A DNA stretch of 32,000 nt from Solitalea canadensis DSM 3403 (GTDB lineage: Bacteria > Bacteroidota > Bacteroidia > Sphingobacteriales > Sphingobacteriaceae), in NCBI RefSeq assembly GCF_000242635.2, contig NC_017770.1, forward strand, positions 1,468,669-1,500,668, written 5' to 3'. Positions within the stretch are counted from its first letter, which is position 1. The number at the start of each line of letters is the position of its first letter. A program made the position numbers and the translations under genes. The notes beneath the pieces are model-generated. The model had not been told where the DNA came from and searched no databases. It was given only the letters and a program-made list of their open reading frames with translations. This document shows, piece after piece, positions 11,067-25,734 of the stretch.

Positions 11067-11116
11067 GAAAATACTAATGACAATTGAAAGTTAGTTTCTG
11101 AAAAATGTTAAATAGT

Positions 11117-13447
11117 TTAGCATTCTTGATTCTTTCCTTCATTCAAATTCATTTCCACTAATACCTCATCCAGATTTCTTACCAGCGCATCTGCATTATC
11201 ATGGTTAAAAACCATTGGCGGCTTAATTTTTAATACGTTGTATAAGGGTCCGTCTGTACTGAGCAGAAATCCGCGTTCTTTCATTTTTTCTACAATTTCA
11301 TCTATCTCAGGTACAGCAGGTTCAAGGGTTTCTTTATTTCTGATCAGTTCGGCACCTACAAACAAACCATAACCCCGAACATCACCTATAATTGGATGCT
11401 TCTCTTTAAGTGATGATAAACCAGCCATCAAATAATTTCCGGTTTCTAACGCATGTTGCTGCATTTCTTCTGATTGAATGGTGGTTAATACAGCAATTCC
11501 GGTTGTCATAGAAACCGGATTTCCTCCGAATGTATTAAAATATTCCATTCCGTTGTTAAATGCTTCAGCGATCTCGGTAGTAGTTACAACTGCTGCCAAT
11601 GGATGACCGTTGCCAATCGGCTTCCCTAAAACCACCATATCCGGCACCACATTCTGTAGTTCAAAACCCCAGAATTTTTCACCAACACGTCCAAATCCAA
11701 CCTGAACTTCATCCGCAATACATACTCCACCTGCTGATCTGACGTATTTGTAAACTTCTTCAAGGTAGTTTTCAGGTAAAGGGATTTGTCCACCTACTCC
11801 TAAAAGTGTTTCACAAATGAAAGCAGCCGGGGCTTTATCCTCTTTTTCGAGTTTTTCAATCAGCTGTTGAACGCTTTTTGCGTACTGGGCTCCTGCATCT
11901 TTATCCTCATAACGATATTCACCACGGTACAGGTCCGGATTTTGAGCTTTATGAATATGTGGTGGCTGACCAAAGCCACCTTTACCATCAAATTTATAGG
12001 GGCTTAATTCCATGGCTACAGTTGATGTACCATGGTAAGCATGATCCAATACAATTACATCCTTTTGTTTAGTAAAATGACGGCTCATCCGGATGGCAAG
12101 ATCGTTGGCTTCGCTACCTGAATTGGTAAAAAAACAAACATTCAACGATGGTGGCAGCGTTGCACAAAGCATTTTTGCATAGTTGGTTAGATTGTCATTT
12201 AGGTAACGGGTATTGGTATTGAGCGTTGCAATTTGTTGTTGCATAGCTTTTACCACAGTTGGATGACAATGGCCTACATGACTTACATTGTTTACACAAT
12301 CAATATAGGTTCTTCCTTTATCATCATAAAGGTATTGGAAAGCTCCTTTAATAATTTTGAGTTTCTTTTTGTAGCTGATACTAAGGTTTCGTCCAATGAG
12401 TTCTTTACGCTCTTTTAACAACGTAGCGTAATCATCGTCCTGCTTAATGATCGGAGTATATCCACAAGCTATCCGCAGTTCATTTTCAACTAATACAGGA
12501 TTTGTTTTAATCAGTTTGAACAACAAATCCCATGCAGGTCGTTCAGTTATAAAATGATGTTGATTATCGCTTTGCAACGAGGCGTTATAAGCAGATTTGG
12601 TTACACTTATACAAAGGCGTGCACAAATAAGGTAATATAGAACTTCAATTTCTGTTTCTGTTAACGGATTTTCATGATGGTAACCTTTAACTACATTAGC
12701 CGCCACCATAACCGGATTTTCTTTATCCAGCATGGCATAAGTACAGGCAATTGCCACGTTGTTAATAACCTGCGAAAATACCATGTCACCAAAATCAATC
12801 AAACCGACGATCGAATTGCCACTTACCAGTACATTATAATCATTGGCGTCATTGTGAATAACTGCCGTCCGTAATGAAGGTAATTTGGGCAGGACTTCCA
12901 TCTCAAATTGTAGCAGAAAATAATCAGCAATCCGGCGTTTCTCATGATCCTTAATATAATGCAGGTCTTTTCTTGCATCCAGTGCATTACGGATATCCCA
13001 TTCATAATACCTGTTTATCGATGGGTGAAAAAATCCGGCAAGCGCACTGTCCATTTTTCCCAGGAATATACCAAGATCGACTTGCAATTCATTACTATGC
13101 TGTTGCTCCTCTACCCAAAAATTACCGTGAAGGAAATTTAATATCCTTAGATAATATTGATTTCCATTTAAGGTAATTGCAGTTAAAGATTGCGCCGTTC
13201 TGTTGGGTATAACCTGTTGAAATTTATTGGCAATACCTGATTGCGACAGGTGGTCAAGGATTTTAATCTGAGCCTCTAAAAAATGATAATCGTGTGCATC
13301 GGTTGATATTTTACCAATAAACTGCCCTCCGGATTCATCAGTAAGTAAGAAATTCTGCTCGTCATAACCATTTAAAGTTTTTGCTTTAACAATTAAATTA
13401 TAATGCTGTGCAACGAGTTGCTCTATATTTTGTTCAGTGAAGCTCAT
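11117..13447 (-). CDS. bifunctional fusion: N-terminal APH/hydroxylysine-kinase-like kinase + C-terminal class-III PLP enzyme of the AGXT2L (phospho-lyase) type
   Basis: 776 aa with no signal peptide. Kinase part (aa 1-~330): YDEQNF, catalytic loop [13 protein letters not shown] (HxDxxxxN) and IDFGDM. PLP part (aa ~345-770): [32 protein letters not shown] and PLP-lysine motif [10 protein letters not shown]. From memory, both halves track animal HYKK and PHYKPL/ETNPPL block by block. Confidence 0.85.
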
Positions 13448-13471
13448 GAGTTGTTTCTAATTAGTGCTTTT

Positions 13472-18603
<5,132 letters not shown>

Positions 18604-18637
18604 TTCAGTTTAAGTTAAGTGAATGGTAAGAGAAACC

Positions 18638-18799
18638 CTAACCCCTAAAGGGGGATTCTGACAGTGCTAACTTTGTTTTTGTAGTCACTTGGCTAAATCT
18701 TTACCTTCAAGAATTTCTAACTCGAGTGATAAGAAATCCTTATTACTCAAGTTAGAAATTGGTAAAGGGTTTAGATATTAGTTCCCTTTTAGGGGTTAG
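18638..18799. repeat. 162-bp nested imperfect palindrome (REP/MITE-like structured element) in the susD-GH2 spacer
   Basis: Three paired tiers are visible. The outer tier pairs CTAACCCCTAAA (18638-18649) with TTTAGGGGTTAG (18788-18799) and continues to GGG/CCC across a 1-nt bulge. The middle tier pairs CTTTACC (18699-18705) with GGTAAAG (18761-18767). The inner tier is a 21-bp stem, 18712-18732 with 18740-18760, with 2 mismatches and loop GAAATCC. There is no ORF. Confidence 0.75.
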
Positions 18800-18833
18800 T
18801 AGGGGTATTTCCCTGTGCGCTGTCATTCTTCTA

Positions 18834-18861
18834 CTCCTTTCCCTTCATGAGGGGAAAGGAG
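18834..18861 (-). terminator. stem-loop immediately downstream of susD (terminator or mRNA-stabilising hairpin; no U-tract)
   Basis: CTCCTTTCCC-loop-GGGAAAGGAG forms a 10-bp GC-rich stem 13 nt after the susD-like stop. A T-run does not follow, so classic intrinsic termination is uncertain. Confidence 0.45.
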
Positions 18862-18873
18862 TATGTTAAAACA

Positions 18874-20433
18874 TTACCAGTTCTTAGCCTGATGAATATT
18901 AGGATTCTTGCTTATTTCAGCAAATGGAACCGGATAGATATCGTGTTTTCCATTGATGAAATTGTTAGCAAACTCGTGATTATGGTTTGTCAAAACCGTT
19001 TTAATAGGTTCCGGGGCTGATTTGCTACGTGCCCAACGGTAAAGGTCGGCCCAACGGATACCAAATTCCATTGATAATTCACAAGGACGCTCATGATGGC
19101 GAATCTGTTCTCTTAATTGAGCAGTACTCAAGGCCACTAAAGGAGCAGCTTTGGCACGCTCACGAACACGATTTACAACTGTTAATGCCTCAGCGGTTAG
19201 TCCACGCTCATTCAGTGCCTCAGCGTGCATCAACAGAACATCAGCAAAACGCATTAGGTGTATATTAACACCTGTATAATTTTTATTATCAGCTAAATCA
19301 GCTGGATAGGCATATTTTTTAAAGAATACATGATAGTTTAACCCATCTTTTACATCCGAATACTTCATTTCAACTCCCTGTTCATTTACAACAGGTGCTT
19401 TAGAATTAGGATCATCGAAGAATAAGGTCGCATAAACACGATCGCTGTACGTACCATTGTCGGTTTTATCTTTCATAAACTCGCTTTCGAGATAAGGAGA
19501 AGGGTAAAACAACTCCCAACCATTCAAGGCATAAGACGAAACTTCCCAGGCAATTGGGTTGCGGGCATCAAAACTGTTGGTTCTGTCGGCGCTGAACTGA
19601 ATTTCAAACAAGGATTCCTTGTTGTTTTCAAAAGCTCCGTTAAAGTTATCACCATAGTTAGCCATCAGGTCATATTTTCCACTGTTAATCACACCTGCAA
19701 ATTCGGTGTTGGCATTCTCGAATTTTTCCTGGAATAGGTATGCTTTCCCCAGATAGGCCTGAGCTGTATATTTAGTAGCTCTACCCACCTCATTTCCGGC
19801 ACGACTTTCCGGCAGAAATTGTACACCTTCTTTAAAGTCGCTTTCTATTTGGTTCCAGATGTCTTCTTCTTTTGCTTCAGACGGGTAAAAATCAATTTCT
19901 TCTTTTTGGACTTTAGTGATTAAAGGAATGTTTTTGAAATAATTAATCAGGGTGAAATAATAATAGCCTCTCAGGAATTTGGCTTCAGCAATCATCATTT
20001 TCTTTTCCTCATCTGATAAACCATTTTGTGCATTACCCGAAACATTAGGAATATTTTCAATACACTGGTTTGCACGACTTATTCCGGCAAAGCAAGAATG
20101 CCAAAGATTTGTAAACGTGGATTCATCAGTGGTGTAGGTATACGAATGAAGCGACTTTCCATAACCTTCTGCTTTGTTATTGATGATCTCATCCGATTTA
20201 TAAGTGGATGAAATATAAAGTTCCTCAAACCAAGTCCATTTGTCTCCACCTGCCGATCGTAATGCGGCATAGGTCGATAAAATTCCCTGTTCTGCATGTT
20301 CTTTGGTTTTCCAGAAGGAACTTCCTGATAGGTCTTTTTTATTTTCTTTATCCAGAAAATCCTTTTCGCAAGCGGTGGAAGTAAAAACCAACGCAGCTGT
20401 GATTATATATAAATGTTTCTTTAACGTTTTCAT
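18874..20433 (-). CDS. SusD/RagB-family outer-membrane glycan-binding lipoprotein
   Basis: Lipoprotein signal (ALVFTSTAC). A 519-aa TPR-like helical protein 18 nt downstream of the SusC-like gene, with typical SusD blocks (AEAKFLRGYYYF, LMRFADVLLMHAEA, YPVPFAEISKNPN). Confidence 0.9.
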   Translation of the reverse strand: MKTLKKHLYIITAALVFTSTACEKDFLDKENKKDLSGSSFWKTKEHAEQGILSTYAALRSAGGDKWTWFEELYISSTYKSDEIINNKAEGYGKSLHSYTYTTDESTFTNLWHSCFAGISRANQCIENIPNVSGNAQNGLSDEEKKMMIAEAKFLRGYYYFTLINYFKNIPLITKVQKEEIDFYPSEAKEEDIWNQIESDFKEGVQFLPESRAGNEVGRATKYTAQAYLGKAYLFQEKFENANTEFAGVINSGKYDLMANYGDNFNGAFENNKESLFEIQFSADRTNSFDARNPIAWEVSSYALNGWELFYPSPYLESEFMKDKTDNGTYSDRVYATLFFDDPNSKAPVVNEQGVEMKYSDVKDGLNYHVFFKKYAYPADLADNKNYTGVNIHLMRFADVLLMHAEALNERGLTAEALTVVNRVRERAKAAPLVALSTAQLREQIRHHERPCELSMEFGIRWADLYRWARSKSAPEPIKTVLTNHNHEFANNFINGKHDIYPVPFAEISKNPNIHQAKNW

Positions 20434-20451
20434 ATTACTGGTGTTGATTTG

Positions 20452-23400
20452 TTAAAAGTCGAATGATAAACCTGCGAAGAAGCTCCGTGAAAGAGGATAG
20501 AGACCTCTGTCAACTCCACGGGCAAACGTCGAATAATTAACAATTCCCGGATCATAACCTGTGTATTTAGTAATGGTAAACACATTAGTAGCTCCGGCAT
20601 ATATTCTAAGACTATTCAGTTGTGGCAGCTTAACCTTATATCCGATCTGGATGCTTTTTAAACGGAAGTAAGAACCATTTTCAAGGAAACGATCAGAAGG
20701 AAGGCTGTTGTTGCCATTTGGGTCCTGAACTGTAGTACGTGGAATATCTGAATTAGGGTTTTCCGGAGTCCATGCATCTAGCAAATCTGTAGACTTATTA
20801 TGAATGGTATTCTGATACATCAGGCGTTTTGCACCGTTGTAAATTTTGTTACCCTGTGCACCCTGAAATAGCATGCTCATATCGAAACGTCCCAAACTTA
20901 AGTTTGCGGTTAGGCCGTATTCGAACTTAGGTAAACCACTTCCCATAAAGATGCGATCGTCATCATTTAATTCGCCATCGCCATTGGTATCAACAAATTT
21001 CACATCACCAAGCTGGGCATTAGGCTGATAGGCTTTAACAGCATCTAAATCTTGTTGGGTTTTAATTACTCCTGCCGTTTTATATAAATAGAATCGTCCG
21101 ATTTCTCCACCTACTTCTGTTCTGGTAGTAGGGAAGTTGTTGAAATCCATATAACCGTCAGTGAAAGATTCACCTGCGAAACCAAGTTTAGTCACCTTGT
21201 TGCGGTTCAAGGTAAAGTTTCCGGTTACGTCAAATTTTAGTTTTCCTGCAGTGCCTCTGTATGAAAGAGCCATGTCAATACCCTTGTTCTCCATTTCAGC
21301 TGCATTTTTGTATGGATTAAACAACAGACCTCCACTTAAAGGAAGCGGAACTGTAACCAACATGTCGCTGGTGCGGGTTTTAAATACGTCAACTACAAAT
21401 GTTAGTTTTTCATTCAACACTGAAAGATCCACTCCGGCGTTAAAAGTGGCTGATTCTTCCCATTTAATATCAGGGGCTGAAGCAGAAGTTACAATACCGC
21501 CAGTAAAGATTTTCTGGCGAATTCCGGTTCCTAAAGGATAGTTCACTGCATCATTACCTGCATTAATAACAGGAGGCAGGTATTGATAATTTGGAATGCT
21601 CTGATTTCCTAAAGTTCCGTAACCGGCACGGATCTTCAGGTCGTTAATTACTGATGATTGGAAGAATTTTTCGCTGCTAACTCTCCATGCTCCTGAAAAC
21701 GAATAAAAAGTTCCATACTTGTAGCTTGGTGCAAAGCGTGAGGATCCGTCAACACGGACAGTTGCTGCCAGTAAATACTTGTCATTGTAGGCATAATTGG
21801 CTCTTGCAAACCATGAAATCAGTGAGCTTTCAACCAGTGTACCTCCAGAAGATTTATCTCCCAAACCCGAATTTAATGCCCACAGATCGTTTGATGGCAG
21901 GTCATTATTACTGCCTGATAGTGAACGCAGGCGATCGCTTTCCTGAGAATATCCTGCAAGAGCATTCAGCGCATGAACATTATTAAATGTTTTATTGAAA
22001 GTTAACACAGCATTCAAGATGCTGCGATTGTATTTACTTCTTCCTTCATATAACTGGGCATTAGGGTTTTGAACTTTTGCACCCATGTAATAAGTAGGAA
22101 TATGCGAATAGGCATAGCTGTCGTCGAGATTAATACCATATTGCAAACGGAATGATAATGGTTGAAGGATTTGATATTCACCATAAATATTCCCTATTAA
22201 TGAGGTACGTTGCTCCGAATTGTCTACCAACGTCTGAATACCTACCGGATTGGTGGCATCGATCATTTCTGTTCCGATTCTGCCTCCGAAACCACCGTCA
22301 TTTTCAGAATTGTATACAGGAAACTGAGGAACACGGTTAATCATTTCATAGATTAACGGATAACCTGCATTTTGTTGGTTTGCGGTACTTTCATTAGAAC
22401 CTTCCAGCATGCGTCGGTCTGATGAAAGAAAAGTCATCGACTCGCCAAATTTGAATTTTCCTTTGGTGATATCTGTGTTTACCTGTACGTTATATTTCTG
22501 AAAATTAGTGTTGATTACAATACCTTTCTGATCGTATCTGCCCAATGATACATTCATTTTAAGATCCTTTGACCCGCCCGAAAGACTTAAATCGATTTTG
22601 CTTTCCGGTGCGGCCTGAAAAAATTCATCCTGCCAGTCGGTATTCGGGTAAGCTTGTGTTTGACCGTTGCCATCTACATAAGTATTGCTTGCAGTGTAAT
22701 CAAGTGGGGCTTCTCCATCATTCTTTTGCGTCTGCAACATGATCTGATTGTATTGCGACTGGTTGGTAATGGGTAAACGTTTTGAAAGCTGGTTTACTCC
22801 ATAGTAAGAATTGACATTGACTTTTATTTTTCCGTCTGTGCCTCGCTTGGTAGTTACCTGGATTACACCGTTTGAAGCTCTTGAACCGTAAATAGTAGCT
22901 GCAGAGGCATCTTTAAGTACATCAATCGATTGAATATCATTCGGATTTACAGAATTGATATCACCCGGAATACCATCGATCACATACAAAGGATCATTGT
23001 TTCCGATCGTACTTAATCCGCGAACTCTGATAATAGGAGCAGCGCCGGGATCTCCGGAACCTGGTGCCACCATAACACCTGCTGCTTGTCCCTGAAGCAT
23101 GGTACCCACATCGCCGCCAGTGAGTTTTTCCATGTTTTTAACATTAACACTTGAAACTGCACCTACAACATCGCGTTTGCGTTGTGTACCATAACCTACT
23201 ACAACTACTTCTTCAAGTCCTTTTGCTTCGGTTTTTAACTTGATCACAAGCTCTTTACGTCCGTTTACTGCAACTTCCTGAGTTTCAAAACCAATAAAAG
23301 AAGCAATAATGGTTGCATTTGACGGAACATGATTCAGCGTAAACTCTCCATTTCCGTTGGTGCTGGTGCCAATGCCGGTGTTCTTGACAGATATATTAAC

Positions 23401-23829
23401 GCCGGGAAGTTCCTCGCCCTGATCTGACACTACTTTTCCCTTTATGTTTATATTGTCCTTTGGGTCGTTTCCCGATGCCTTGGTCTGCGGACGGAGCATA
23501 ACGATATCCTTGTCATACTTGATTTCAAGGTTAGTTTGTTTGACGATCTCATTAAGTAATTCTTCAACAGTTCGTTCTTTGGAAACAATAGTTACTTTTC
23601 CTGCATTGGTAAGATCGTTGCTGTTGAAAGAGATCTTAACAGAGGTTTTTGATTTTATCTGATTTATAGCACTGACCACCTCAGTATCTTTAAATCCGAT
23701 GGTTATCTTTTGTTGCAGTTCAGGAGCATTCTGGGCTTGTGCTCCCATTGCAATCATAAATCCGGAAAGAAGTGCAAGCACATGCCGTACCAGCTTTCCC
23801 GATAAGGATAGGGTAAATTTTTCATTCAT
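20452..23829 (-). CDS. SusC-type TonB-dependent receptor/transducer with N-terminal signalling (STN) extension
   Basis: 1125 aa with a signal peptide. An STN-like N-extension (ITIGFKDTEVVSAINQIKSKTSVKISF) is followed by a CarboxypepD_reg-like domain (IKGKVVSDQGEELPGVNISV...NGEFTL), a plug (VVVVGYGTQRKRD) and a barrel ending ...AGLSFDF. Confidence 0.92.
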   Translation of the reverse strand: MNEKFTLSLSGKLVRHVLALLSGFMIAMGAQAQNAPELQQKITIGFKDTEVVSAINQIKSKTSVKISFNSNDLTNAGKVTIVSKERTVEELLNEIVKQTNLEIKYDKDIVMLRPQTKASGNDPKDNINIKGKVVSDQGEELPGVNISVKNTGIGTSTNGNGEFTLNHVPSNATIIASFIGFETQEVAVNGRKELVIKLKTEAKGLEEVVVVGYGTQRKRDVVGAVSSVNVKNMEKLTGGDVGTMLQGQAAGVMVAPGSGDPGAAPIIRVRGLSTIGNNDPLYVIDGIPGDINSVNPNDIQSIDVLKDASAATIYGSRASNGVIQVTTKRGTDGKIKVNVNSYYGVNQLSKRLPITNQSQYNQIMLQTQKNDGEAPLDYTASNTYVDGNGQTQAYPNTDWQDEFFQAAPESKIDLSLSGGSKDLKMNVSLGRYDQKGIVINTNFQKYNVQVNTDITKGKFKFGESMTFLSSDRRMLEGSNESTANQQNAGYPLIYEMINRVPQFPVYNSENDGGFGGRIGTEMIDATNPVGIQTLVDNSEQRTSLIGNIYGEYQILQPLSFRLQYGINLDDSYAYSHIPTYYMGAKVQNPNAQLYEGRSKYNRSILNAVLTFNKTFNNVHALNALAGYSQESDRLRSLSGSNNDLPSNDLWALNSGLGDKSSGGTLVESSLISWFARANYAYNDKYLLAATVRVDGSSRFAPSYKYGTFYSFSGAWRVSSEKFFQSSVINDLKIRAGYGTLGNQSIPNYQYLPPVINAGNDAVNYPLGTGIRQKIFTGGIVTSASAPDIKWEESATFNAGVDLSVLNEKLTFVVDVFKTRTSDMLVTVPLPLSGGLLFNPYKNAAEMENKGIDMALSYRGTAGKLKFDVTGNFTLNRNKVTKLGFAGESFTDGYMDFNNFPTTRTEVGGEIGRFYLYKTAGVIKTQQDLDAVKAYQPNAQLGDVKFVDTNGDGELNDDDRIFMGSGLPKFEYGLTANLSLGRFDMSMLFQGAQGNKIYNGAKRLMYQNTIHNKSTDLLDAWTPENPNSDIPRTTVQDPNGNNSLPSDRFLENGSYFRLKSIQIGYKVKLPQLNSLRIYAGATNVFTITKYTGYDPGIVNYSTFARGVDRGLYPLSRSFFAGLSFDF

Positions 23830-23876
23830 AATAAAAGGGATAGATTGGATATGTTTTAAAATTGGTTGCTAGTTTA

Positions 23877-24920
23877 TTAGTTTTTATTTCTTAATGTGAT
23901 CGTGTTATTTTTTACTTCATAATTAAGGTGGGTAACATAAGCTATCGCAGCAAGCACCTCTTCAGGTTTCTTATTAAGAAATTCACCGTTAAAGCGTACT
24001 GATTTTTTTACATTGGCAGGAGGGACGATCTTCACCCCGTACCAATATTCAAGCTGTGAAGCTATTTGTTCTACAGATGCATCTTTAAAGATCAGCTTGC
24101 CTTCTTTCCAGTTGTTTTCGGCAATCAGGTCAAATGATTGCTTGCGTAAATCCGGACTATCGGCGTTCAGGTAAACAGCTTCTCCCGGATGAAGAATAAC
24201 TTCCATTTTAGATTCATCCTTTAGCTGTTGAGAAACGCGTACTTTCCCTTCCAGAAGTGAAACTTTAAGTTGCTGGTCAAAGTCGTACTGGCGTACTTTA
24301 AATGAAGTTCCTAATGCCTGTACTTTTAGATTACCGGCTGCAACAATAAATGGTTTTTCCTTGTTATGGGCAACATCAAACAATGCTTCTCCTTTAAGGT
24401 TCACTTCTCGTTTTTGCGCATTAAAGTTGTCGGAAATGCTGATGCTTGAGTTTGAGTTAAGTATTACTGAAGTTCCATCAGGCAGTTTAACAGTTTTGCG
24501 CTCGCCTTTAGCTGATGCGTAAGTCGTAAAATGTGCGGTTGCAGTAGAATATGTTTTGGCTGAAAACTCGCGGACGAGCCAGATGCCGCCGATGGAAAGA
24601 ACCACGATGGCGGCAATAGTGGCTACTCGTTGAATTATATTGATTGGCTTAAGTTGGATTGAACGTTTTTGCGAATTTCTATTAATCTCCCATATGGCTT
24701 GCTGTAGCTTACCTAGTTCTTCTTTTTTCTCGGTTTCCGATAATTGAATGGACATAGAAACAAACAAAGACTTTGCTTCTGAAAATTCTGCTTGTTTCTC
24801 CGGATGGTTCTTGATCCATTCTTCCCAAAAGGCAATATCACTTTCATTGCTTTTAAAGCAATAATTAATGAAAGAGTCGTTGGTTAGAAAATCTTCAACA
24901 GTATAACGTTCAAATTGCAT
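23877..24920 (-). CDS. FecR-family anti-sigma factor / transmembrane sensor
   Basis: 347 aa. It has an N-terminal cytoplasmic helix bundle, a single TM helix (IAAIVVLSIGGIWLV), a periplasmic FecR domain (DGTSVILNSNSSI, GEALFDV) and a C-terminal domain that contacts the transducer. It sits between the ECF sigma and SusC genes. Confidence 0.88.
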   Translation of the reverse strand: MQFERYTVEDFLTNDSFINYCFKSNESDIAFWEEWIKNHPEKQAEFSEAKSLFVSMSIQLSETEKKEELGKLQQAIWEINRNSQKRSIQLKPINIIQRVATIAAIVVLSIGGIWLVREFSAKTYSTATAHFTTYASAKGERKTVKLPDGTSVILNSNSSISISDNFNAQKREVNLKGEALFDVAHNKEKPFIVAAGNLKVQALGTSFKVRQYDFDQQLKVSLLEGKVRVSQQLKDESKMEVILHPGEAVYLNADSPDLRKQSFDLIAENNWKEGKLIFKDASVEQIASQLEYWYGVKIVPPANVKKSVRFNGEFLNKKPEEVLAAIAYVTHLNYEVKNNTITLRNKN

Positions 24921-24982
24921 ATTCTTTGTTTTTAGTAAAGAGTATGTCCGACGAAATTTTTACCAAGAAAATTCTAACTTTT

Positions 24983-25570
24983 TTAAAATAATTTTTGGTC
25001 AGATAAAATCCAGCAGATTATTATTGGTAAAGTAACCTCCTGACGCATCAGGCTAATGGCTGCATGAATGGTGTTATAGATTGTTCTTACAGAAATAGAG
25101 GTACGCTCGGCAATTTCTTCATAACTCAATTGCTCAAAGAAACGTAAGCGGATTAATTCTTTTTGCCTTGCAGTGAGTTTATTGATCGCAGCTTCTATGC
25201 GTTGCTTTCTTTCATAATCTTGTTCACGGTCAATAAGCAATTGTTCATATGAACTCACTTCTGGCTCCACAGGCAATGTGTCGTAGGTTTCAAGGGTTCT
25301 TTTGTTGATAGCTTTTATCAATCTGCGTTTATAGCTAATGAAAATATAATGTTGTATCTGACGGATGTCTTCTAGTTTTTCACGCTTGATCCAAAGGTCA
25401 ACAAAGATGCCGTTAATATGTTCTTTTACGACTTCACGGTCATGGCTTAATCGCAGTCCGAAACGAAATAGTTTATCATAGGAAATCTGGTACAAACGAT
25501 AAAAGGCCCGTTCATTACCAAGTTGTACCTCATTCCATAGCCAATTATATTCCTCGTTGTTATCCTGCAT
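24983..25570 (-). CDS. ECF-type RNA polymerase sigma-70 factor
   Basis: 195 aa. Region 2 (FYRLYQISYDKLFRFGLRL...DLWIKR) and a region 4 helix-turn-helix (LSYEEIAERTSISVRTIYNTIHAA) are present. It heads the FecR-SusC-SusD run. Confidence 0.88.
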   Translation of the reverse strand: MQDNNEEYNWLWNEVQLGNERAFYRLYQISYDKLFRFGLRLSHDREVVKEHINGIFVDLWIKREKLEDIRQIQHYIFISYKRRLIKAINKRTLETYDTLPVEPEVSSYEQLLIDREQDYERKQRIEAAINKLTARQKELIRLRFFEQLSYEEIAERTSISVRTIYNTIHAAISLMRQEVTLPIIICWILSDQKLF

Positions 25571-25734
25571 AGCTTAAATAATAGACCGGTTTTTATATCA
25601 AATTTCTGAAGAATATAATTGTATATAATTTGAAGGTACAAAGTTGAATGAAAGAAGTGAAATGCTGTTGAAAATAAAATTGAATTTTATCTCATTAGTG
25701 GAATGAGAAATGGAAATGAGTTTCACATTGATAT

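What the first reader, a model, noticed from the sequence alone, without database searches (positions are those of the whole stretch)
11117..13447. Single-polypeptide fusion of an APH-type small-molecule kinase with an AGXT2L-type PLP enzyme (predicted kinase + ammonia/phosphate-eliminating lyase, not a transaminase)
One 776-aa ORF joins two domains with no intervening stop.
- **Kinase domain:** complete, with HNDANDYN catalytic loop and IDFGD.
- **Class-III PLP domain:** complete, with [11 protein letters not shown] and PLP-Lys in [10 protein letters not shown].

In animals the two homologous activities are separate proteins (HYKK; PHYKPL/ETNPPL). There the 'aminotransferase' fold acts as a phospho-lyase on the kinase product. 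A fusion implies substrate channelling of a phosphorylated amino alcohol. Automated annotation would probably call this an aminotransferase, which would be wrong if the animal precedent holds. The bacterial substrate (5-hydroxylysine, ethanolamine or another amino alcohol) is unknown.
Basis: partly seen in the sequence, partly recalled or inferred. Interest (0 to 1): 0.6.

Follow-up and report, generated by a model that had tools for sequence, protein, structure and literature searches.

The report
Hydroxylysine kinase/phospho-lyase fusion closing a collagen-sugar locus
The 776-residue protein is a real but already known type of two-enzyme fusion that most likely phosphorylates the collagen amino acid 5-hydroxylysine and then splits off phosphate and ammonia. 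Its neighbours suggest that the bacterium imports sugar-tagged hydroxylysine and removes the sugars first.

Summary
One intact 776-aa ORF on the minus strand (11117-13447) joins an APH-fold kinase to a class-III PLP domain, and all four quoted motifs are present.

- **PLP half:** it scores 481 bits to human ethanolamine-phosphate phospho-lyase and 312 bits to the Arthrobacter phospholyase. No transaminase, racemase or decarboxylase in the PDB scores above 179 bits.
- **Not an artefact, not new:** thousands of Bacteroidota proteins share the architecture, and one is already named [quoted passage not shown]. As I recall, bacterial fusions of this type led to the 2012 identification of the human enzymes.
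- **What I add is the substrate.** In 37 of 62 related loci the gene follows SusC/SusD, a beta-galactosidase (GH2, or GH42 instead) and a YgjK-type GH63 alpha-glucosidase (GH31 instead in two loci). It is often followed by HglS, L-piperidine-6-carboxylate dehydrogenase and a D-2-hydroxyglutarate-dehydrogenase-like oxidase. This points to Glc-Gal-hydroxylysine of collagen, degraded via 2-aminoadipate semialdehyde.
- **In this genome:** the seven-gene locus is a ~14.7-kb insertion absent from congeners. The downstream lysine-pathway genes lie about 313 kb away.

The scan reached the same reading earlier on other genomes. Nothing has been assayed, and channelling is untested.

The parts
11117..13447 (-). 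776-aa bifunctional ORF (P0001): APH-fold kinase fused to an AGXT2L-type PLP phospho-lyase. It has no signal peptide.
12443..13447 (-). Kinase half, aa 1-335 (Pfam APH aa 26-259). The catalytic loop HNDANDYN lies at nt 12833-12856 and IDFGD at aa 217-221.
   Evidence: The nearest named Atlas clusters are 'Hydroxylysine kinase' (a lead only).
11138..12415 (-). PLP phospho-lyase half, aa 345-770 (Pfam Aminotran_3 aa 364-763). The PLP-lysine motif [10 protein letters not shown] lies at nt 11600-11629, and the Lys609 codon at 11621-11623.
13472..15427 (-). GH63 YgjK-type alpha-glucosidase with a signal peptide, 24 nt upstream of the fusion. Proposed to remove the alpha-1,2-glucose from Glc-Gal-Hyl.
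   Evidence: [quoted passage not shown]
15436..18603 (-). GH2 LacZ-type beta-galactosidase with a signal peptide. Proposed to release hydroxylysine from Gal-beta-O-Hyl.
   Evidence: In one search it scores 1017 bits to NF052611, above the 999-bit cut-off.
18874..20433 (-). SusD-family lipoprotein
20452..23829 (-). SusC/RagA TonB-dependent transporter with an N-terminal STN signalling domain
23877..24920 (-). FecR-type anti-sigma factor
24983..25570 (-). ECF sigma factor, the first gene of the inserted seven-gene cassette

Best explanation
The ORF encodes a cytoplasmic bifunctional 5-hydroxy-L-lysine kinase / 5-phosphohydroxy-L-lysine phospho-lyase.

**Enzyme steps (inferred).**
- The N-terminal APH-fold domain phosphorylates the 5-hydroxyl of hydroxylysine, using ATP or GTP.
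- The C-terminal class-III PLP domain binds the neighbouring epsilon-amine as an aldimine on Lys609. It eliminates phosphate and releases ammonia and 2-aminoadipate 6-semialdehyde (equivalent to piperideine-6-carboxylate). No 2-oxoacid acceptor is needed.

**Place in the locus (inferred).** It is the last gene of an ECF-sigma/FecR-controlled SusC/SusD locus.
- The transporter would import collagen-type Glc-alpha1,2-Gal-beta-O-hydroxylysine, free or on short peptides.
- The periplasmic GH63 would remove the glucose and the periplasmic GH2 the galactose.
- The semialdehyde would then enter the genome's lysine pathway, encoded about 313 kb away: piperideine-6-carboxylate dehydrogenase, an aminotransferase that I did not identify, HglS, and a D-2-hydroxyglutarate-dehydrogenase-like oxidase, ending at 2-oxoglutarate.

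**Shown versus inferred.** Shown: the domain architecture, the intact motifs, membership of the lyase clade by sequence, the conserved gene context, and the insertion. Inferred: every catalytic activity, the nucleotide used, the substrate, and the cell compartments (from signal peptides only).
For: **Architecture and motifs:**

**Lyase clade:**
- PDB scores are 481 bits to ETNPPL and 312 bits to the A1RDF1 phospholyase, against 179 bits or less for all transaminases, racemases and decarboxylases.
- The best NCBIfam models are the kinase-lyase fusion families PRK06148 and PRK06149. The next model scores 270 bits.

**Context in 62 related loci with at least 9 kb upstream:**
- 48 have a beta-galactosidase.
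- 38 have a GH63.
- 43 have SusC and SusD.
- 37 have all three.

**Function kept while the family or gene order changes:**
- GH42 replaces GH2 in Flavobacterium.
- GH31 replaces GH63 in L029 and L078.
- At least four different gene orders occur (L080, L112, L015 and the window).
- Three-domain homologues, only 34-37% identical in the kinase half and 51% in the lyase half, also sit beside GH63 and/or GH2; L112 also has SusC/SusD (L111, L112).

**Downstream chemistry:**
- HGLS is adjacent in 19 of 69 loci and an aldehyde dehydrogenase in 15 of 69.
- L117 has one co-directional cluster: HglS, aldehyde dehydrogenase, GH63, GH42, the fusion, then an FAD/Fe-S oxidase, with a divergent Lrp/AsnC regulator.
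- That aldehyde dehydrogenase and the window genome's own copy both pass the NCBIfam equivalog cut-off for L-piperidine-6-carboxylate dehydrogenase (826 and 832 bits, cut-off 730). The oxidase's best match is the D-2-hydroxyglutarate dehydrogenase YdiJ.
- An Xaa-Pro aminopeptidase lies directly upstream in L037 and L063.
- The window genome carries LysR / saccharopine dehydrogenase / HglS / P6C dehydrogenase / oxidase at G000:C1 positions about 1,153,600-1,161,150.

**Compartments:** GH2 and GH63 have signal peptides and the fusion has none.

**Glucosidase:** the GH63 is a YgjK homologue (E 8.8e-91) that keeps the catalytic Glu and the acid motif. [quoted passage not shown]
Against: - As far as I know, no bacterial member has been assayed.
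- The best solved relative is the phosphoethanolamine enzyme ETNPPL. No entry named PHYKPL appeared among the PDB hits, so the two specificities could not be compared.
- Kinship of the kinase half with animal HYKK was not tested directly. The PDB gives only weak hits, E about 0.004, and Atlas names are automatic.
- 12 of the 62 loci have no glycosidase or SusC context. Flavobacterium also carries a second, non-PUL paralogue. The enzyme therefore also works outside this locus, perhaps on free hydroxylysine or on another substrate.
- The window's locus has no inner-membrane transporter and no peptidase.
- The related loci are kin, so the counts overstate independence.
Confidence: 0.7

Rival explanations
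1. The fusion is an ethanolamine (or similar small amino alcohol) kinase joined to an O-phosphoethanolamine phospho-lyase. The product would be acetaldehyde, as with ETNPPL and Arthrobacter A1RDF1.
For: The two best solved relatives are both phosphoethanolamine lyases. An Atlas neighbour cluster is named ethanolamine-phosphate phospho-lyase.
Against: - No PHYKPL entry was among the PDB hits, so ETNPPL may rank first only for lack of one.
- Ethanolamine use would not explain conserved linkage to a beta-galactosidase, an alpha-glucosidase and SusC/SusD.
- It would not explain linkage to HglS, P6C dehydrogenase and a D-2-hydroxyglutarate-dehydrogenase-like oxidase.
- No acetaldehyde dehydrogenase or eut-type gene showed up in the ORFs I scanned with Pfam, though most loci were probed only with a fixed tblastn set that had no such query.
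Confidence: 0.1
2. The fusion is a kinase/lyase for a different glycosylated amino alcohol released by the same two glycosidases. Candidates are a sphingoid base from a glycolipid or a non-collagen hydroxylated diamino acid.
For: The substrate is inferred only from context. Bacteroidota make and meet many glycosylated amino alcohols. 12 of 62 loci lack the glycosidases.
Against: - The recurrent neighbours are specific to the 2-aminoadipate branch of lysine catabolism. The P6C dehydrogenase passes an equivalog cut-off, and HglS is present.
- Of the glycoconjugates I know, only the collagen disaccharide Glc-alpha1,2-Gal-beta-O-Hyl carries a YgjK-type Glc-alpha1,2-Gal epitope on an amino alcohol (own knowledge; PMC8626586).
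Confidence: 0.12
3. The C-terminal domain is a genuine omega-transaminase that needs a 2-oxoacid, and the kinase acts on something else.
For: The Pfam family is Aminotran_3 and most database names say aminotransferase. AGXT2-type transaminases are the nearest non-lyase relatives of this clade: At3g08860 is 36% identical to 5G4I (PMC6750192).
Against: - There is a gap of about 300 bits between ETNPPL and any transaminase.
- Kinase and PLP domain stay linked whether fused, fused with a third domain between them, or encoded by adjacent genes. This fits a phosphorylated intermediate.
Confidence: 0.04
4. The fusion is an assembly or frameshift artefact of two genes.
For: None found.
Against: The same full-length architecture occurs in at least 80 independent assemblies, including complete chromosomes. 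The window comes from a single 5.2-Mb contig.
Confidence: 0.01

Closest known systems
Vertebrate hydroxylysine kinase (HYKK/AGPHD1) plus 5-phosphohydroxy-L-lysine phospho-lyase (PHYKPL/AGXT2L2). Source: Veiga-da-Cunha et al. 2012, J Biol Chem 287:7246. The paper is not held here; its content is from my own knowledge, and it is cited in PMC12138971 and PMC5714238.
   Same: The same two folds (APH kinase, class-III PLP) and the same proposed two-step chemistry, ending in 2-aminoadipate semialdehyde, ammonia and phosphate. As I recall, the abstract says that bacterial two- and three-function fusions of this kind prompted the assignment of the human enzymes.
   Different: Here the two activities are one polypeptide in a bacterium, encoded in a SusC/SusD locus with two glycosidases. 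Orthology to HYKK or PHYKPL was not tested, because no reference sequences could be obtained.
Human ETNPPL (PDB 6TOR) and the Arthrobacter aurescens A1RDF1 phospholyase (PDB 5G4I/5G4J)
   Same: These are the closest solved relatives of the PLP half, at 481 and 312 bits. They align end to end, including the PLP-lysine loop.
   Different: Both are stand-alone phosphoethanolamine lyases. The context here points to 5-phosphohydroxylysine.
Bacterial three-domain proteins of NCBIfam PRK06148 / PRK06149 (about 1000 aa; kinase, middle domain, class-III PLP domain)
   Same: These are the best NCBIfam matches, at 988 and 638 bits. Members in G429 and G333 also sit beside GH63 and GH2.
   Different: The window protein lacks the middle domain (Peptidase_M23 by the Pfam labels of such proteins) and scores below both curated cut-offs (1128 and 973).
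Lysine catabolism through 2-aminoadipate, 2-oxoadipate, D-2-hydroxyglutarate and 2-oxoglutarate (AmaB-type P6C dehydrogenase, HglS, YdiJ-type dehydrogenase), as described in Pseudomonas putida (own knowledge)
   Same: The same enzyme families lie next to the fusion in many relatives, and in a separate operon in this genome.
   Different: Here the pathway would be entered at the semialdehyde from hydroxylysine, not from lysine.
Animal protein-glucosylgalactosylhydroxylysine glucosidase PGGHG (GH65) (PMC8626586)
   Same: It carries out the reaction proposed here for the neighbouring GH63: removal of the alpha-1,2-glucose from Glc-Gal-Hyl.
   Different: It belongs to a different glycoside hydrolase family and clan, so this is an analogy and not homology.

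Membership tests
AGXT2L-type ammonio-phospho-lyases (ETNPPL/PHYKPL) | Class-III (fold type I) PLP domain with the Schiff-base lysine in the conserved loop | tested here: met
   PF00202, E 1.8e-77. [10 protein letters not shown] aligns with MGKPMGNGHP of ETNPPL.
AGXT2L-type ammonio-phospho-lyases (ETNPPL/PHYKPL) | Closer in sequence to characterised lyases than to any characterised transaminase, racemase or decarboxylase | tested here: met
   481 and 312 bits against 179 bits or less in the PDB. The genome's own paralogues are about 30% identical. AGXT2 and PHYKPL themselves were not available for comparison.
AGXT2L-type ammonio-phospho-lyases (ETNPPL/PHYKPL) | Active-site residues specific to phosphate elimination | not tested
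   The structural papers that define these residues (Cuetos 2016; the 6TOR paper) are not in the held library.
AGXT2L-type ammonio-phospho-lyases (ETNPPL/PHYKPL) | Releases phosphate and ammonia without an amino acceptor | not testable with these tools
   Needs an enzyme assay.
HYKK/AGPHD1-type hydroxylysine kinase | APH/protein-kinase-like fold with the HxDxxxxN catalytic loop and the DFG-like metal-binding Asp | tested here: met
   PF01636, E 1.7e-20. HNDANDYN at aa 198-205 and IDFGD at aa 217-221.
HYKK/AGPHD1-type hydroxylysine kinase | Orthology to animal HYKK rather than to homoserine kinase II, choline/ethanolamine kinases or APHs | tested here: inconclusive
   PDB hits are weak only (homoserine kinase 2PPQ and APH(2'')-Id, E about 0.004-0.007). 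The nearest named Atlas clusters are 'Hydroxylysine kinase', but homoserine-kinase clusters have the same score. No HYKK sequence was available.
HYKK/AGPHD1-type hydroxylysine kinase | Phosphorylates 5-hydroxy-L-lysine | not testable with these tools
   Inferred from linkage to the lyase, to Glc-Gal-removing glycosidases and to P6C dehydrogenase and HglS.
NCBIfam PRK06148 / PRK06149 (three-domain kinase / middle domain / PLP proteins) | Whole-protein score above the curated cut-off | tested here: not met
   988 bits against a cut-off of 1128, and 638 against 973, each in two separate stretches. The middle domain is absent.
Bacteroidota polysaccharide-utilisation locus (PUL) | Adjacent SusC/SusD pair co-directional with glycoside hydrolases | tested here: met
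   TIGR04056 at 854 bits, the SusD Pfam domains, and GH2 and GH63 on the same strand with gaps of 8 and 24 nt.

The most novel reading that the evidence does not exclude
The fusion is the committed cytoplasmic step of a mobile Bacteroidota uptake locus dedicated to the collagen glyco-amino acid Glc-alpha1,2-Gal-beta-O-hydroxylysine. This would be a bacterial catabolic route for hydroxylysine glycosides for which I found no description. It would also give YgjK-type GH63 glucosidases a physiological substrate. In this genome the locus arrived as one seven-gene insertion and feeds a lysine pathway encoded elsewhere.
Probability: 0.55. Interest if true: 0.65.

Novelty: new member of a known kind. 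Interest (0 to 1): 0.42.

Why it matters
- **Annotation.** Most sources call this family an aminotransferase. Naming it a hydroxylysine kinase/phospho-lyase would correct annotation for thousands of Bacteroidota genes.
- **Collagen turnover.** Hydroxylysine and its Glc-Gal glycoside are hallmark collagen modifications, yet I found no description of how environmental bacteria consume them. The conserved locus gives a complete, testable pathway from outer-membrane import to 2-oxoglutarate.
- **GH63 function.** The locus suggests a natural substrate for GH63 YgjK-type enzymes, whose physiological role has been unclear as far as I know.
- **Limits.** The fusion itself is not a discovery.

Tried and rejected
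- **The 2012 paper.** Veiga-da-Cunha 2012 (PMC3293546) is not held. I rely on my memory of its abstract and on two papers that cite it for fusion or comparative-genomics evidence.
- **Named animal sequences for a tree.** I searched with the PLP half alone, shortened to exclude full-length fusions. The results were swamped by partial metagenomic fragments of the same fusions. No tree against PHYKPL, ETNPPL, AGXT2 or GabT could be built, so PDB and NCBIfam score gaps stand in for it.
- **Solved relative of the kinase half.** Only marginal hits appeared.
- **Lyase-specific active-site residues.** The structural papers are not in the library.
- **Prior description of a bacterial Glc-Gal-Hyl locus.** Four literature searches found none. 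This shows absence only from the held library.
- **Expression evidence.** Only DNA runs from compost, manure and soil metagenomes hold the sequence, so I did not lay reads.
- **Promoters and terminators around the gene.** Counts were no higher than in shuffled sequence.
- **Structure prediction.** I judged it unlikely to settle substrate or channelling, because no coordinates are returned. I did not run it.
Full report
**Observation.** The window has one 776-aa ORF at 11117-13447, on the minus strand, with an ATG start and no internal stop.
- Pfam finds APH (aa 26-259, E 1.7e-20) and Aminotran_3 (aa 364-763, E 1.8e-77).
- The N-terminus has no signal peptide.
- The start is conserved: homologues align from residue 1.

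**The fusion is real and common.**
- A whole-length search hit its ceiling of 8000 scored candidates, all significant. The 120 best listed are 764-820 aa long, 64-84% identical to the query, and carry both Pfam domains.
- Eighty genome loci from Chitinophagaceae, Flavobacterium, Pedobacter, Saprospiraceae and unclassified Bacteroidota encode it full length, several on complete chromosomes.
- In an even sample of the phylum, 35 of 401 genomes (25 of 180 genera) have a lyase-clade match at E ≤ 1e-100.
- These matches come in three architectures: about 770 aa (two domains), about 960-1140 aa (with a middle domain) and about 445-500 aa (stand-alone lyase).
- One genome has adjacent unfused kinase and lyase genes (L113).
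- A frameshift artefact is excluded.

**What each half is.**
- The PLP half scores 481 bits (E 5.5e-143) to human ethanolamine-phosphate phospho-lyase (6TOR). It scores 312 bits to the Arthrobacter phospholyase (5G4I).
- The next PDB entries are racemases, dialkylglycine decarboxylase, GabT and ArgD, at 179 bits or less.
- The alignment to ETNPPL runs end to end, and Lys609 matches the PLP lysine.
- The best NCBIfam models are the kinase-lyase fusion families PRK06148 and PRK06149. Both score below their cut-offs because the middle domain is missing. The next model scores 270 bits.
- The genome's own class-III paralogues are about 30% identical.
- The kinase half has an intact catalytic loop and metal-binding Asp.
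- It has no close solved relative. Its nearest named Atlas clusters are called hydroxylysine kinase, but that is a lead only.
- By sequence, "kinase plus phospho-lyase, not transaminase" is the well-supported reading. No activity has been measured.

**Not new.**
- One homologue is already named [quoted passage not shown] (P0057). An Atlas cluster carries the same name.
- PMC12138971 cites the 2012 paper on HYKK, PHYKPL and ETNPPL as its example of a gene fusion revealing enzyme function. PMC5714238 lists the same paper as a success of comparative genomics.
- From my memory of its abstract, bacterial two- and three-function proteins of exactly this type prompted the hypothesis. I could not read the paper itself.

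**Substrate, from gene context.** In the window the fusion is the last of seven co-directional genes:
1. ECF sigma factor.
2. FecR anti-sigma factor.
3. SusC with an STN signalling domain.
4. SusD.
5. GH2 beta-galactosidase.
6. GH63 YgjK-type alpha-glucosidase.
7. The fusion.

The last three are separated by gaps of 8 and 24 nt. GH2 and GH63 have signal peptides.

I took 80 related loci and probed them by tblastn. Of the 62 with at least 9 kb of upstream sequence:
- 48 have a beta-galactosidase.
- 38 have a GH63.
- 43 have SusC and SusD.
- 37 have all three.
- 12 have none.

These loci are kin, so the numbers are not independent. The function, however, survives changes that inherited synteny cannot explain:
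- GH42 replaces GH2 in Flavobacterium.
- GH31 replaces GH63 in two loci.
- At least four different gene orders occur.
- Three-domain homologues of only 34-37% and 51% identity sit beside GH63 and/or GH2; L112 also has SusC/SusD (L111, L112).

The GH63 is a clear YgjK homologue (E 8.8e-91) with its catalytic Glu and acid motif intact. [quoted passage not shown] Glc-alpha1,2-Gal-beta-O-hydroxylysine is the collagen disaccharide unit (PMC8626586).

**Downstream chemistry.**
- The expected lyase product is 2-aminoadipate semialdehyde, which is equivalent to piperideine-6-carboxylate.
- Among 69 loci with at least 5 kb downstream, HGLS (2-oxoadipate to D-2-hydroxyglutarate) lies within the ±10-kb locus in 19 and an aldehyde dehydrogenase in 15.
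- L117 has a single cluster with a divergent Lrp/AsnC regulator: HglS, aldehyde dehydrogenase, GH63, GH42, the fusion, then an FAD/Fe-S oxidase.
- That aldehyde dehydrogenase passes the NCBIfam equivalog cut-off for L-piperidine-6-carboxylate dehydrogenase (826 bits, cut-off 730). The oxidase's best match is the D-2-hydroxyglutarate dehydrogenase YdiJ, below its cut-off.
- Xaa-Pro aminopeptidase genes lie directly upstream in L037 and L063, which suits proline-rich collagen peptides.
- The window's own genome has the same pathway about 313 kb away: a LysR regulator, saccharopine dehydrogenase, HglS, P6C dehydrogenase (832 bits) and the oxidase.

**Specific to this genome.**
- None of 4 congeners, nor any of the other same-family genomes sampled (20, 7), has the fusion. 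The congeners also lack a GH63 orthologue.
- In two congeners the dicarboxylate-symporter gene and rplU lie about 0.6-0.7 kb apart. Here they are 15.3 kb apart.
- The whole seven-gene locus is therefore a ~14.7-kb insertion. It is shared only with an 84%-identical relative from a metagenome (L013).
- The fusion groups with Chitinophagaceae-dominated clades in an unresolved part of a FastTree tree. SusC, SusD and GH2 are 59-69% identical to Chitinophagaceae versions.
- This suggests lateral acquisition. I did not establish a donor.
- Near-identical DNA occurs in compost, manure and soil metagenomes.

**Channelling.** Unfused adjacent genes exist, and so do versions with a large middle domain between the halves. 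The relative geometry is therefore not conserved. Co-expression and avoiding a free phosphorylated intermediate are equally good reasons for a fusion.

**Earlier findings of the scan.**
- I formed the collagen-glycoside reading (notes), before looking at the earlier findings.
- Follow-up agents reached the same reading on other genomes (e1-2457319, e1-2457741, e1-2464199, e1-2459342, e1-2453787).
- These are not independent evidence.

**Verdict.**
- The fusion is a new member of a known kind.
- The most likely function is 5-hydroxylysine kinase / 5-phosphohydroxylysine phospho-lyase at the end of a Glc-Gal-hydroxylysine utilisation locus (confidence 0.7).
- I found no paper describing such a bacterial locus. 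That is where any novelty lies.

Noticed in passing
window 11100-25600: The seven-gene ECF/FecR/SusC/SusD/GH2/GH63/fusion cassette is a ~14.7-kb insertion between a 162-aa gene and rplU. In congeners G002 and G004 the symporter gene and rplU are only about 0.6-0.7 kb apart. No integrase or repeat boundary was looked for.
   Followed up: partly
L031 and L033 (Flavobacterium sp. W1B); L037 and L039 (F. gillisiae): Some Flavobacterium genomes carry two paralogous fusions in separate tree clades. One is in the SusC/SusD-GH63-GH42 locus. The other is outside any PUL, next to an AraC regulator or an Xaa-Pro aminopeptidase, and near a saccharopine dehydrogenase.
   Followed up: partly
L111 (G333) and L112 (G429); also about 25 ORFs of roughly 960-1140 aa: The three-domain relatives carry a middle domain between kinase and lyase (Peptidase_M23 by the Pfam labels of such proteins). 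Two of them also sit beside GH63 and GH2. What a peptidase-like domain does in this enzyme is unexplained.
   Followed up: no
L102 (G000:C1:1147000-1165000): The genome's lysine-catabolism operon (LysR, saccharopine dehydrogenase, HglS, P6C dehydrogenase, YdiJ-like oxidase) lies just downstream of a Mutator-family transposase and a GH20 hexosaminidase.
   Followed up: no
G418:C52:47666-49936 (L106): A 44%-identical two-domain homologue has two in-frame TGA codons. It may be a pseudogene, a sequencing error or recoding.
   Followed up: no
L018 3461-6674: In one Chitinophagales locus, GH2 plus the fusion are preceded by a sodium:solute symporter and a GFO/IDH/MocA oxidoreductase instead of SusC/SusD. 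This may be an inner-membrane uptake variant of the same pathway.
   Followed up: no
window 11117-15427: Near-identical DNA is held by compost, manure and soil metagenome runs (word shares up to 0.91). No RNA run was found.
   Followed up: partly
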